Virus record (IMG/VR): IMGVR_UViG_3300037424_003005
Location: 1-24,046 of that record
Length of the DNA: 24,046 bases
Source of the DNA: a virus
Lineage: Duplodnaviria; Caudoviricetes
Strand: one strand, 5' to 3'
Shown: piece after piece, positions 19,325-21,789 of the stretch
How the letters are laid out: each line of letters starts with the position of its first letter
Numbering within the stretch: position 1 is the stretch's first letter
The notes under the pieces: generated by a model
What the model was told of the DNA's origin: nothing
The model's database searches: none
The model's input: only the letters and a program-made list of their open reading frames with translations
Program-made: the position numbers and the translations under genes

Positions 19325-20410
19325 TTACAGGCTTCCTCCGCAATGCGGACAGGTCTTAAAATCTCCGACACCATAGAGACGATCAACGGGCGACACCACC
19401 CGACGGAAGCGGGTCCTTGCCACATGGAGATAACCCATCGTCGTTTTCAGATCCTTGTGGCCCATCAGATCCTGGACCATCTTCACGTCCTCGCCGTTTT
19501 CCAGAAGATGCGTGGCGAACGAATGGCGCAGGGAGTGCGGCCCGGCGTGCTTGTAGACCTTGGCGCGAATCATCGCGGCGTGAAACGCTTTCTGCATAAG
19601 CGACACGTCAAGGTGCCATCGACCTTCCTGCCTGGCCTCTTTGTCAACCCATCGTGAGCCCGCAGGGAAAACCCACTGCCAAGCCCACGACTTTGCCGCA
19701 TTCGGGTATTTTTTGGCGAGAGCATCGGGCATGAAGACCGCGCCCCACCCTTCGGCCAGATCGCGCTCCCATAACCGCTTGGCATATTCGATCTGAGCGC
19801 GTAAGGGCTCGACATCGTGCTTCGGGAGCGGCAGCGTTCTGGCATTCAGGGCTTTGCTGGATTGCAGGATGATCATCTCTTGACCGAAATCGATATCCTT
19901 GATCCTGAGCGTCAGGCAGTCGACCTCAACCCGTAGGCCATCGCCATACATGAGATCCGCTGCCAACAGATAGGGATTCGACAACTCAGCCAGGACTCTC
20001 TTTACTTCGTCTTCAGATAAGACGACGGGGATATGCTTTGCCTTCTGTGCCCTCGGGGCATCGATCAAACCGACGTCATGATGCAGAATCTTGCCGTAAA
20101 AATACAAAAGCGCATTCAGCATGACATTCTGAGTGGATGCTGCTACGTGTTTTTCCATGGCGGCATAGGTTAAAAATTCACGGATCGCAGCTTCATCGGT
20201 CAGAAGCGAATGGCGCTTAATCTTAAAATCGAGGAACTCGGCCACATAGCCACAATAAGAATCTTCCGTGCTGGGGGCTAAATGCTCCAGGCGTATCTCC
20301 CGGTGCATCGCCTGCAATAGTGCGTCAAAATCGGTCAGCTTGCTTGATTTGATTGGTACGTTATCGGGCCTTTTTTCGGCATAACGCCTTTGACTCCAAC
20401 GACTTCCCAT
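19325..20410 (-). CDS. intI: Integron integrase (tyrosine recombinase with the integron-specific I2 insertion)
   Basis: [41 protein letters not shown]...[44 protein letters not shown]. Confidence 0.93.
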
Positions 20411-20446
20411 GACTGACCTCCTTTCGTGATAAGACGCAATCTTGCG

Positions 20447-20465
20447 GGATAATCAGTAGTTAGGG
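20447..20465 (+). other. attI-like simple site
   Basis: L box GGATAAT, 5-bp spacer CAGTA, R box G^TTAGGG; about 40-55 bp upstream of the intI start and divergent from it; same geometry as the attI1 core. Confidence 0.75.
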
Positions 20466-20654
20466 TGATTTTAGCCGTTTTAGCTGGGCGTAGAGTTCGA
20501 CCCATGCAAAAGCAATCGCCCTCGGCGGTCGGCCGTTTGGCCCGTCATCCTCCCAGCTCTGCCAGGTGCGGTACTTCTCCCCGGTCAGGCGGGCCGCTTC
20601 TGCCATTGAGAGGCCCGTTGCTTCACGGGCCTCCCTGAGATCCTTGGCGGTCAC
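20460..20654 (-). CDS. XRE-family HTH protein
   Basis: DLREAREATGLSMAEAARLTG..YRTWQSWE; its stop codon is the TTA of the R box. Confidence 0.85.
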   Translation of the reverse strand: MTAKDLREAREATGLSMAEAARLTGEKYRTWQSWEDDGPNGRPPRAIAFAWVELYAQLKRLKSP

Positions 20655-20867
20655 TTATGCCACCTCATCCACTTCGCCGGTCTCAATCAGTTCGTCAACC
20701 TCTTCGCGGCTGAGCTGCCAGCGCTCGATTGCATTTTTGCCGTCGTCGTTGATACTGCTTTCTTCGGTCGGCCAGAGAATGCAGTCGCCAGAGTCGTGCA
20801 GCCACAAAAAAGAATCTTCACCGGCTGCGGTTTTAGCTTCCAGAATTTCATTAACGGTCGTGGTCAT
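20655..20867 (-). CDS. Small acidic hypothetical protein (70 aa)
   Basis: ATG 20867 with RBS AGGAGA; abuts the HTH gene. Confidence 0.7.
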
Positions 20868-20910
20868 GTCTGATCTCCTTGGGTTATTTGTTCCGCTCTT
20901 CTTGATTTTA

Positions 20911-20959
20911 ATTATACGCACATTGTGAACGATTGCAAGTGAAATAATTCACTTTGTGC
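20911..20959 (-). promoter_or_regulatory. Sigma70-type promoter with paired operators inside cassette 1
   Basis: -35 TTGCAA (20938-20933), 16 bp, -10 TATAAT (20916-20911); inverted repeats GCACAttGTGAA (20918-20929) and TTCACttTGTGC (20948-20959). Confidence 0.7.
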
Positions 20960-20999
20960 ATTTTTATTTTAGAGCGGTGACAATCACCCTAATCAGTAG

Positions 21000-21173
21000 T
21001 TATGGCGCTCACCCCTTAATCACCGTTATCAAAAGTGCCAAGCATATCAGACCTATCCACCCTAGCGGAGTGCAAAACAGCAAAATAAGAAAAGCCCAAA
21101 ATCCATCCATTACTAACTCCTATCCGCGCCATAACAAGGCGCTCATGCGGACTAGCCGCATATCTGAAAATCG
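21000..21173 (+). mobile_element. Gene cassette 2
   Basis: GTTATGGCGC at 20999 is complementary to GCGCCATAAC at 21126. Confidence 0.8.
21009..21110 (-). CDS. 33-aa hydrophobic membrane micropeptide, absent from the ORF track
   Basis: RBS AGGAG; MDGFWAFLILLFCTPLGWIGLICLALLITVIKG; fills the cassette exactly. Confidence 0.7.
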   Translation of the reverse strand: MDGFWAFLILLFCTPLGWIGLICLALLITVIKG

Positions 21174-21179
21174 TTATGG
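21129..21179 (+). other. attC site (short, 51 bp)
   Basis: R'' CCATAAC, AAGGC, L'' GCTCATGC (extra base at position 4), GG-ACTAG-CC, L' GCATATC, R' GTTATGG. Confidence 0.75.
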
Positions 21180-21450
21180 CGCTAACTTTTCGGCAGACAT
21201 TCCGCCAAGTTCTGAACCCAGCAAGGCCCAAGACTTCTGTTGATCTGATAAATAAGTTCTTTTGCCTCTTCTCCTGACTGCAACTCCGACAGGATGTAGG
21301 ATATGGGCATTGGACTTCCATCTCGGAGAATTGCCGAACCATCGCCGCATATTCCTTCTGAAAACTCATGCTTCATCTGTCTACCTCCCGCGCCATAACA
21401 AGGCGCTGCAAGTCGGACCGGCAAAGAGCGCCGGCCCTTGAGCTTAGTGG
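21174..21450 (+). mobile_element. Gene cassette 3
   Basis: GTTATGGCGC at 21173 is complementary to GCGCCATAAC at 21390. Confidence 0.85.
21182..21376 (-). CDS. Small hypothetical protein (64 aa)
   Basis: ATG 21376 with RBS GGAGGT right next to R''; MKHEFSEGICGDGSAILRDG. Confidence 0.75.
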   Translation of the reverse strand: MKHEFSEGICGDGSAILRDGSPMPISYILSELQSGEEAKELIYQINRSLGPCWVQNLAECLPKS

Positions 21451-21456
21451 TTAGAT
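21393..21456 (+). other. attC site (64 bp)
   Basis: R'' CCATAAC, AAGGC, L'' GCTGCAAG, CCGGC/GCCGG stem, L' CTTGAGC, TTAGTG, R' GTTAGAT. Confidence 0.9.
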
Positions 21457-21669
21457 TGCTTCTTCCAGCGCTTTTTCAATATCTGCACTGACTCTATCCA
21501 GAATCATCCTGGCCGGGCTGCGACCTTCGATTTCCCGCGATCGCAATTCAAAAATTTTTGCAGCCGCGAGCATCCCCGCTTTAAATGCTTCACTGGCATC
21601 AACCCTGTAAAGCCTATAATGCGCAAATTTTACTTCAGGCGAATCAAACCATTCATCAAACACGCTCAT
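21451..21669 (-). CDS. Small hypothetical protein (72 aa)
   Basis: ATG 21669 with RBS GGAGGT; MSVFDEWF...EAFKAG; its stop TAA is the TTA of the R' box. Confidence 0.75.
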   Translation of the reverse strand: MSVFDEWFDSPEVKFAHYRLYRVDASEAFKAGMLAAAKIFELRSREIEGRSPARMILDRVSADIEKALEEAI

Positions 21670-21783
21670 TGCTCTACCTCCGCAATCTAACAAAATAATG
21701 CAGGCGGACCGAATGACCGTCTGCGGGTCTCGAAAATCTCTGCGGTTCGCGTCTATTTCGTCGCGGTCCGCTGATCAAATGCG
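21451..21783 (+). mobile_element. Gene cassette 4
   Basis: GTTAGATTGC at 21450 is complementary to GCAATCTAAC at 21682. Confidence 0.85.
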
Positions 21784-21789
21784 TTATGA
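21685..21789 (+). other. attC site (105 bp)
   Basis: R'' ATCTAAC, AAAAT, AAT(G)CAG(G)CGGACCG pairing with CGGTCCGCTGATC, AAATGC, R' GTTATGA. Confidence 0.88.

What the first reader, a model, noticed from the sequence alone, without database searches (positions are those of the whole stretch)
19325..21789. Complete integron (intI, attI, four cassettes) built into a phage early region
Seen: an integrase with the integron-specific I2 insertion and the catalytic R-K-H-R-H-Y residues, an attI-like site just upstream, three attC sites, and matching R'/R'' complementarity around each cassette. It is flanked by co-oriented small phage-type genes with no transposase or IS. Established: integrons are described mainly on chromosomes, plasmids and transposons, and are rarely reported on phages. 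Inference: this phage owns a cassette capture/shuffling platform for small accessory genes (for example anti-defence, exclusion or host takeover).
Basis: partly seen in the sequence, partly recalled or inferred. Interest (0 to 1): 0.95.

Follow-up and report, generated by a model that had tools for sequence, protein, structure and literature searches.

The report
Phage integron with reversed gene cassettes
A prophage carries a complete integron (a gene-capture device known mainly from bacteria) whose four cassettes code their genes on the opposite strand to bacterial cassettes, a layout shared by many other phage genomes, so phages likely own a gene-swapping system of their own.

Summary
Confirmed. 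The window is a lambdoid provirus with an intact IntI (TIGR02249 335 bits, cut-off 265), an attI, three attC sites found by a model built from other phages' sites, and four cassettes with matching junctions.

Cassette 1 is closed by a truncated attI, not an attC. All cassette genes are reversed: the attC sites point the normal way, but the genes run towards intI, on the phage's coding strand.

Related phages carry the same platform with other cassettes (84% identical IntI; same attI core). An IMG/VR scan gave 303 IntI relatives; all 50 records checked pass the IntI cut-off, 8 of them with terminal repeats. In viral arrays, 18 of 67 reversed-strand ORFs but 1 of 76 normal-strand ORFs hit PHROGs; bacterial arrays show the opposite. 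Two near-identical phages differ by a cassette inserted exactly at attI.

I found no paper on phage-native integrons with reversed cassettes (9 searches); published phage integrons are host-derived or class 1. This scan reported the same layout before, on other DNA (8 notes). Recombination, expression, host and cargo functions are untested. New variant of a known kind.

The parts
19325..20410 (-). intI, integron integrase, 361 aa, intact; C-terminal CPHCGG motif invariant in its 17-member clade
20432..20465 (+). attI; L-box-like GGATAAT, 5-nt spacer CAGTA, crossover G20459|TT
   Evidence: sequence; conserved in G001 and in core form in L184
20460..20999 (+). cassette 1 (540 bp): own promoter, acidic ORF, HTH gene; closed by a truncated attI
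   Evidence: junction complement 11 of 12; homologous modules sit in cassettes in L180 and L257
20460..20654 (-). 64-aa HTH regulator; its stop codon is formed by the attI R box
   Evidence: weak HTH hits below cut-off, phrog_2104; 63% homolog next to attI in L180
20655..20867 (-). 70-aa acidic protein (19 D/E, 4 K/R), unknown family
   Evidence: 46 proteins at E<=0.001, itself included; confident model, no fold match; charge count
20911..20938 (-). sigma70-like promoter (10 of 12) with short inverted repeats beside it, pointing at intI; predicted
   Evidence: 4 sites found against 3.1 expected, so weak alone; similar layout in L180
20982..21005 (+). delta-attI-type site: R''-like arm, attI spacer, GTT; crossover G20999|TT
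   Evidence: the same 12-mer occurs inside the G001 array; class described in PMC12901181
21000..21173 (+). cassette 2 (174 bp)
   Evidence: junction complement 10 of 10
21009..21110 (-). 33-aa hydrophobic ORF with Shine-Dalgarno; predicted membrane peptide
21129..21179 (+). attC-A, variant with 8-nt spacer
   Evidence: CM 20.1 bits, E 0.014; bottom-strand hairpin z -3.6
21174..21450 (+). cassette 3 (277 bp)
   Evidence: junction complement 10 of 12
21182..21376 (-). 64-aa ORF with Shine-Dalgarno, no family
21393..21456 (+). attC-B, canonical (5-nt and 6-nt spacers, extra base at L'' position 4)
   Evidence: CM 32.4 bits, E 1.6e-5
21451..21783 (+). cassette 4 (333 bp)
   Evidence: junction complement 10 of 12
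21451..21669 (-). 72-aa ORF with Shine-Dalgarno; stop codon formed by the R' box; no homolog found
21685..21789 (+). attC-C, long terminal loop; crossover G21783|TT
   Evidence: CM 22.5 bits, E 0.0037
21791..21979 (-). flanking phage gene (62 aa), upstream of the array in transcript terms
   Evidence: 80% homolog before the array in phage L184
19108..19263 (-). flanking ribbon-helix-helix-like gene after intI
   Evidence: below cut-offs
22997..24046 (-). ParB-domain phage early gene (context)
   Evidence: 63% homolog in L184
16493..18274 (-). lambda-type portal gene (context; true start uncertain)
   Evidence: phrog_21, E 6.5e-88

Best explanation
This is a complete integron (IntI, attI, four cassettes) inside a lambdoid provirus, with cassette genes coded on the strand opposite to bacterial cassettes, and it likely works as a phage-owned device that inserts and swaps small accessory genes so that they are read within the phage's own transcript. 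Shown: the platform; normal attC polarity relative to attI; reversed ORFs that start just beyond R'' and stop at or near R'; other cassette sets on related phages; a cassette inserted at the attI crossover in one of two near-identical phages. Inferred: IntI recombines folded attC bottom strands with attI as in other integrons. Because the genes are built backwards in the cassette, they land co-oriented with intI and the phage operon and need no Pc promoter. New cassettes would enter next to intI, at the promoter-distal end. intI, 49 nt behind the crossover, is likely read from a transcript that crosses the array, possibly from cassette 1's promoter under its HTH repressor. Cassette 1 likely lost its attC by L-box x R'' recombination and would move by the double-stranded attI route.
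For: IntI identity. attC hits from a model without window sites. Phage G001: IntI 84% identical, same attI, no other DNA match to the window, other cassettes including thyX, intI overlapping terS. Phage L184 shares ParB (63%) and two neighbours (62%, 80%) and has an integron behind them with another IntI subclade and other cassettes. 303 IntI relatives in IMG/VR, best 80 kept; 50 of 50 records checked pass the IntI cut-off, 20 are at least 90% complete, 8 have terminal repeats; G004 is complete with terminal repeats. Genes behind intI, same strand, in 67 loci: terminase in 18, primase in 9, integrase families in 20. Orientation: Shine-Dalgarno plus start leaving R'' on the bottom strand at 74 of 132 viral and 13 of 210 bacterial attC; after R' on the top strand at 4 of 132 and 31 of 210. 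Codon-model calls: viral 45 reversed, 11 forward, 33 uncalled of 89; bacterial 8, 98, 48 of 154. PHROG hits 18 of 67 reversed against 1 of 76 forward ORFs. L248 has a 339-bp cassette at the attI G|TT that L247 lacks; L209 holds one cassette twice; L207 and L247 share a cassette at 88.6%. Tree: the window's IntI lies on a branch whose 13 located members are all viral (SH-aLRT 95).
Against: No recombination or expression data. No excision joint in the two runs laid, which are contigs only. 15 of the 17 closest IntIs have no genomic context. No lambda-type terminase is found in the window, so this provirus (53% complete) may be defective. attC-A has an odd spacer. Longest-ORF calls alone did not separate the strands in viral arrays (37 to 37). 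One forward cassette gene is real (L233 HTH). Some phage integrons use the Treponema-like layout with forward genes (L205, L243, L249, Rctr41k), so reversal is not universal.
Confidence: 0.8

Rival explanations
1. The integron is phage-type but this copy is dead cargo in a defective prophage; nothing is shuffled here any more.
For: No terminase between the integron and the portal, unlike G001 and L184; provirus 53% complete; variant attC-A; cassette 1 without attC; no joints seen.
Against: IntI is intact and has a close cluster member with mostly conservative changes; attC-B and attC-C are canonical; identical pieces occur in a second study; L177 also has the portal right behind intI, with its terminase upstream.
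Confidence: 0.1
2. It is a piece of a host chromosomal integron picked up by the prophage, as in the Vibrio and Shewanella phages of Qi et al. 2023.
For: Precedent (PMC9892861). The host is unknown. Some viral IntIs elsewhere in the tree sit beside bacterial ones (L207 with L092).
Against: Best identity among the 80 kept GTDB loci is 44%. The 4 of 401 genomes of G002's phylum that hit the sister clade are 49-52% identical, lie among host genes and are nearer to other bacterial IntIs. Bacterial arrays have forward genes. No viral cassette ORF matched loci L004-L163.
Confidence: 0.05
3. The cassettes are ordinary ones that were inserted upside down by top-strand recombination.
For: On the ORF strand each cassette runs GTT..., ribosome site, gene, stop...AAC, as a normal cassette does. 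Top-strand recombination inverts cassettes (PMC5027507, passages).
Against: An inverted insertion would also invert the attC asymmetry. Here the 5-nt spacer and the extra L'' base stay on the normal side, the model hits only that strand, and the same model gives forward genes in bacterial and class 1 arrays.
Confidence: 0.03
4. The block is a misassembly of integron and phage contigs.
For: Contigs of run X1 break at the 20-bp repeat in attC-B, and other contigs share the attC sequences.
Against: One X1 contig spans 18478-21409 and one 21380-22566, at depth 8.4-9.4; the same architecture occurs in independent and complete phage records.
Confidence: 0.02

Closest known systems
Sedentary chromosomal and class 1 integrons (VchIntIA, PDB 2A3V; IntI1/attI1/attC)
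   Same: IntI fold and insertion, attI next to the 5' end of intI, attC with R''-5-L''...L'-6-R' and extrahelical base, crossover at G|TT, intI divergent from the attC top strand.
   Different: Cassette genes are on the bottom strand and co-oriented with intI; no Pc needed (inferred); carried inside a phage operon; IntI only about 40% identical to class 1; cargo is phage-type.
Phage-borne integrons and CALINs of Qi et al. 2023 (PMC9892861)
   Same: intI, attI and attC cassettes in phage genomes; DNA methyltransferases among the cargo.
   Different: Their 3 complete integrons are a captured Vibrio chromosomal integron, class 1 mosaics on P1 and a Shewanella-type integron in a cryptic prophage. 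The main text reports no phage-specific IntI lineage and no reversed ORFs. Supplements not read.
Inverted-integrase integrons (Treponema type; PMC4889954, passage)
   Same: intI and cassette genes read in the same direction.
   Different: There intI is flipped relative to normal cassettes; here intI and attC are in the normal arrangement and the genes inside the cassettes are flipped. Some phages use the Treponema layout (L205, L243, L249, Rctr41k).
Delta-attI-type cassettes of class 1 and 2 integrons (PMC12901181)
   Same: Cassette 1, and one cassette of G001, end in about 10-11 nt of attI instead of an attC.
   Different: Found here in a phage integron, around a self-promoted reversed two-gene module.
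acr-aca-like operons (recalled, not from a call)
   Same: Cassette 1 and L180 cassette 1: promoter with inverted repeats, a variable small acidic gene, a conserved HTH gene.
   Different: No match to a known Acr or Aca was found; function untested.

Membership tests
Integron | IntI-family tyrosine recombinase with the integron-specific insertion and catalytic residues | tested here: met
Integron | attI site beside intI with G|TT crossover | tested here: met
   conserved in G001 and L184 while the DNA after GTT differs
Integron | attC sites with R/L boxes and extrahelical bases, all in one orientation | tested here: met
   own covariance model; the IntegronFinder model was not available
Integron | Cassettes with complementary R'/R'' junctions | tested here: met
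Integron | Cassettes move as units between arrays | tested here: met
   for related phages (L247/L248, L209, L207); only indirect for the window
Integron | IntI-catalysed attI x attC recombination | not testable with these tools
   needs a recombination assay
Canonical (Pc-driven) integron | Cassette ORFs on the attC top strand, read from a Pc at attI | tested here: not met
   all 5 window cassette ORFs are on the other strand
Inverted-integrase (Treponema-type) integron | intI on the same strand as the attC top strand | tested here: not met
   intI on -, attC on +
Host-derived integron captured by a phage | IntI and cassettes closely match a host chromosomal or class 1 integron | tested here: not met
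   host unknown, samples incomplete
Delta-attI-type cassette | attC replaced by the last 8-12 nt of attI | tested here: met
acr-aca operon | Small gene inhibits CRISPR-Cas; HTH represses the operon | not testable with these tools
   no family or fold match

The most novel reading that the evidence does not exclude
Temperate phages keep their own integrons and their own shared pool of mirror-image cassettes (methyltransferases, Lar-like and PAPS-reductase-like genes, ThyX, small acidic proteins). The reversed polarity lets cassettes be read in the phage operon and acts as a firewall: host cassettes, many of them anti-phage, would be silent in a phage integron, and phage cassettes silent behind a host Pc. 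That would make integrons a two-sided weapon in the phage-host arms race and a route by which phage accessory regions become mosaic.
Probability: 0.45. Interest if true: 0.92.

Novelty: new variant of a known kind. Interest (0 to 1): 0.82.

Why it matters
Integrons are taught as bacterial devices, and two recent studies call them stores of anti-phage genes (10.1101/2024.07.02.601686 and .601719; search listings only). Phage-native integrons with a reversed cassette design would give phages a site-specific way to gain and swap accessory genes, and would explain part of the mosaicism of early regions. They also bear on the open question of how cassettes are made, since the gene's direction relative to attC is evidently not fixed. 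Their arrays are a ready list of candidate counter-defence genes.

Tried and rejected
Rfam: no match in 18300-24046. Heuristic attC finders were too strict and found 0, 1 and 1 of the window's 3 sites; they served only to seed the model. Longest-ORF orientation was uninformative in GC-rich viral arrays and was replaced by Shine-Dalgarno, codon-model and PHROG tests. Cassette-gene functions: no Pfam, NCBIfam, PHROG or PADLOC assignment beyond weak HTH; ESM Atlas blank for the 70-aa protein; its model (pLDDT 89.6) has no match at E<=0.001 in PDB or BFVD; the wide VIA search did not run. The cassette 4 protein has no homolog; cassette 3 has one 18-residue match. Host: no match of the head protease at E<=1e-60 in 401 genomes of G002's phylum, which shows nothing; host unknown. 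No match to four recalled LexA-box patterns in 19001-22200. Repeated exact attI cores inside other viral arrays: only G001, and a duplicated region in L222. Reads: no excision joints; the second run's pieces bridge no junction. The profile search of 50% representatives gave no context. The formal test of one origin for viral IntIs did not finish. Rejected: IntI as the phage's integration enzyme, because G001 has a separate serine-integrase-like gene (read by motif) and 20 loci have a second integrase behind intI.
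Full report
CONTEXT. The genome held for the window is the window itself, a virus record classed as provirus, 53% complete. Portal, head protease, major head and amidase genes lie at 1-18335 on the - strand; a ParB-domain gene lies at the right end. The finding sits between them, and the genes on both sides of it are on the - strand.

THE PLATFORM. The ORF 19325-20410 scores 335 bits on TIGR02249 (cut-off 265) and far below the XerC and XerD cut-offs. It aligns end to end with VchIntIA, PDB 2A3V, through the IntI insertion, and holds R160, K186, H292, R295, H318, Y327. 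The attI crossover is G20459|TT, 49 nt before the intI start. I aligned 25 attC sites from other phages' loci (their pairs covary) and built a model. In the window plus G001 (57.8 kb, filters off) it finds 3 sites, all in the window and all on +, at 21129, 21393 and 21685. It missed G001's two attC sites, which I read from the sequence. Each cassette starts with GTT plus 7 or more bases that are complementary to the arm near its far end. Cassette 1 ends in an R''-like arm followed by the attI spacer and GTT. That matches the delta-attI class of class 1 and 2 integrons, proposed to arise by L-box x R'' recombination (PMC12901181; read: abstract, section 5, first part of the discussion). G001 has such a site as well.

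THE ODDITY. The attC sites have the normal polarity relative to attI and intI, yet all five cassette ORFs are on the other strand. In cassettes 2-4 a Shine-Dalgarno and ATG follow the R'' box on the - strand; in cassettes 1 and 4 the stop codon is the complement of the R box. Normal cassettes are read from Pc on the top strand, and top-strand recombination inverts a cassette together with its site (PMC5027507, PMC4889954, PMC8876359; passages). Here the site asymmetry is not inverted, so the cassettes are built this way.

RELATIVES. Seventeen IntIs at 65-100% identity form a clade, with a gap to 48-55%; only two have DNA context. G001 (33.8 kb, 57% complete) has an 84% identical IntI and the same attI but no other DNA match to the window in the 13.8 kb compared. 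Its structural proteins are 27-55% identical, its cassettes differ (thyX among them), and intI overlaps the small terminase gene. L184 shares ParB and two small genes with the window and carries, behind them, a sister-clade IntI with a methyltransferase cassette. Both genes of cassette 1 have homologs in reversed cassettes elsewhere with other partners: the HTH in L180, closed by a normal attC, and the acidic gene in L257, 1 of 6 loci found.

A GENERAL PATTERN. A scan of IMG/VR with the sister clade found 303 IntI relatives; the best 80 were kept. Of these I gave 50 to a TIGR02249 search: 50 pass, 20 are at least 90% complete, 8 have direct terminal repeats; G004 is a further complete one. I gave PHROGs 113 of 123 same-strand ORFs behind intI, from 67 loci: terminase in 18 loci, primase in 9, integrase families in 20. 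The model gave 145 hits in 84 loci and 213 in 72 of the 80 GTDB loci. Before counting I dropped the 3 hits of L235 (duplicate of L237), 3 truncated hits, the hits of L004, L016, L164 and L170, and sites within 60 nt of an end. Other near-duplicates remain, and 25 viral sites trained the model. A ribosome site plus start leaves R'' on the bottom strand at 74 of 132 viral and 13 of 210 bacterial sites; it follows R' on the top strand at 4 of 132 and 31 of 210. Longest-ORF calls were 37 to 37 in viral arrays. A codon model reversed, 11 forward, 33 open of 89 viral cassettes (3 from the window and G001), against 8, 98, 48 of 154 bacterial ones. Four of the 11 forward calls are in L205, L243 and L249, whose attC sites are on intI's strand; the GenBank phage Rctr41k has that layout too. 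In both layouts the genes run with intI and the phage operon. In 82 viral cassettes of normal polarity, 18 of 67 reversed-strand ORFs and 1 of 76 top-strand ORFs hit PHROGs: 4 methyltransferases, 2 PAPS reductases, an exonuclease, a radical SAM protein, a Lar-like protein and 9 unknown families.

ACTIVITY IN NATURE. L247 and L248 are 99.98% identical over 8.5 kb and have the same IntI protein. L248 has a 339-bp cassette, with its own attC and a reversed ORF, exactly at the attI G|TT, plus a second 547-bp insert. L209 holds one cassette twice; L207 and L247 share a cassette at 88.6% while their intI genes are 66% alike. For the window itself, run X1 (possibly the source) covers the block in contigs of even depth and has a 90% homolog of the HTH gene that begins exactly at 20459; run X2, another study, has short identical pieces in intI, cassette 1 and both flanks, none bridging a junction. 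No excision joint was seen.

ANCESTRY. No core-clade IntI was among the best 80 of 371 GTDB hits (best 44%) or the best 80 of 283 metagenome hits (scan incomplete). Four of 401 genomes in G002's phylum hit the sister clade at 49-52%; they lie among host genes and are closer to other bacterial IntIs. FastTree on 171 sequences puts the window's IntI in a group of 44 (support 0.97) with 18 viral loci, 26 unplaced proteins and no GTDB member. A quick IQ-TREE run on 46 rows gives a branch (SH-aLRT 95) with 13 located members, all viral. Both trees are midpoint-rooted. Other viral IntIs fall among bacterial ones, which suggests several origins; the formal test did not finish.

MECHANISM. Shown: parts, polarity, variable content, insertion at attI in relatives. 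From established integron biology: IntI recombines the folded attC bottom strand with attI. Inferred: reversed coding puts cargo on the phage's sense strand, so no Pc is needed; the newest cassette sits last before intI; intI is likely read through the array, and cassette 1's promoter (10 of 12, weak alone) with its HTH gene may set that level; a terminator-like hairpin at 18453-18472 may close the unit. The firewall idea in the section on the most novel reading is speculation, and the forward-cassette phage integrons show it is not universal.

LITERATURE. Qi et al. 2023 (PMC9892861; read parts 1-4 of 7, abstract to conclusion; supplements not read, and its CALIN table may bear on orientation) found 3 complete integrons in 10,705 phage genomes, all traced to host or class 1 integrons. 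Nine searches found no report of phage-specific IntI lineages or of systematically reversed cassettes. Passages of 10.64898/2026.09.14.751636, 10.1101/2025.02.12.637893 and PMC8352920 added nothing on this. Subscription journals are mostly outside the library. This scan had noted the same layout on other genomes (8 notes); I saw them after my own tests and do not count them as evidence.

VERDICT. Real, and more unusual than first described: a phage-native integron with reversed cassettes. New variant of a known kind; interest 0.82.

Noticed in passing
window 18335-18610: No lambda-type terminase gene between the integron unit and the portal module, where G001 and L184 have terS/terL. The gap holds four to five 9-bp tandem repeats inside a 19-bp inverted repeat and a terminator-like hairpin.
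   Followed up: partly
window 19325-19350 (IntI C-terminus): A CPHCGG motif ends all 17 clade IntIs (CPHCG invariant) and P0018; it lies beyond the part that aligns with VchIntIA. Possible shared metal site; untested.
   Followed up: no
window 21129-21179; L184 9320-9395 and 8485-8570: attC variants with an 8-9 nt spacer before GTT instead of 6.
   Followed up: no
L209 8928-9047 and 9549-9645; L237 9389-9508; L254 9168-9260: The ribosome site and start codon of the reversed gene appear to lie inside the attC terminal loop.
   Followed up: no
L205, L243, L249; KX853513.1 (Rctr41k) 4680-9434: Phage integrons of the inverted-integrase layout: array on intI's strand with forward genes; the GenBank record labels the IntI as xerD.
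   Followed up: partly
L232 9556-12960: attC sites on both sides of intI, all on the same strand.
   Followed up: no
L219/L222 (G434, G437): L222 has a second, broken intI and a duplicated attI region 3.3 kb into its array.
   Followed up: no
L001 1298-2270: A two-gene cassette with thyX; a 62% thyX homolog lies upstream of intI in L183.
   Followed up: partly
L248 about 8556-9100: A 547-bp insert closed by R'' plus 6 nt plus GTT, with no hairpin: another truncated site type.
   Followed up: no
L268 9259-17326; L269 134-3510: Ordinary chromosomal inverted-integrase integrons in two genomes of G002's phylum; the L268 intI is broken.
   Followed up: partly
window 21698-21786 (run X1 record 6): A contig at 4 times the depth carries an 88% copy of attC-C followed by other sequence after GTT, so the site type is shared with another element in the sample.
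   Followed up: no
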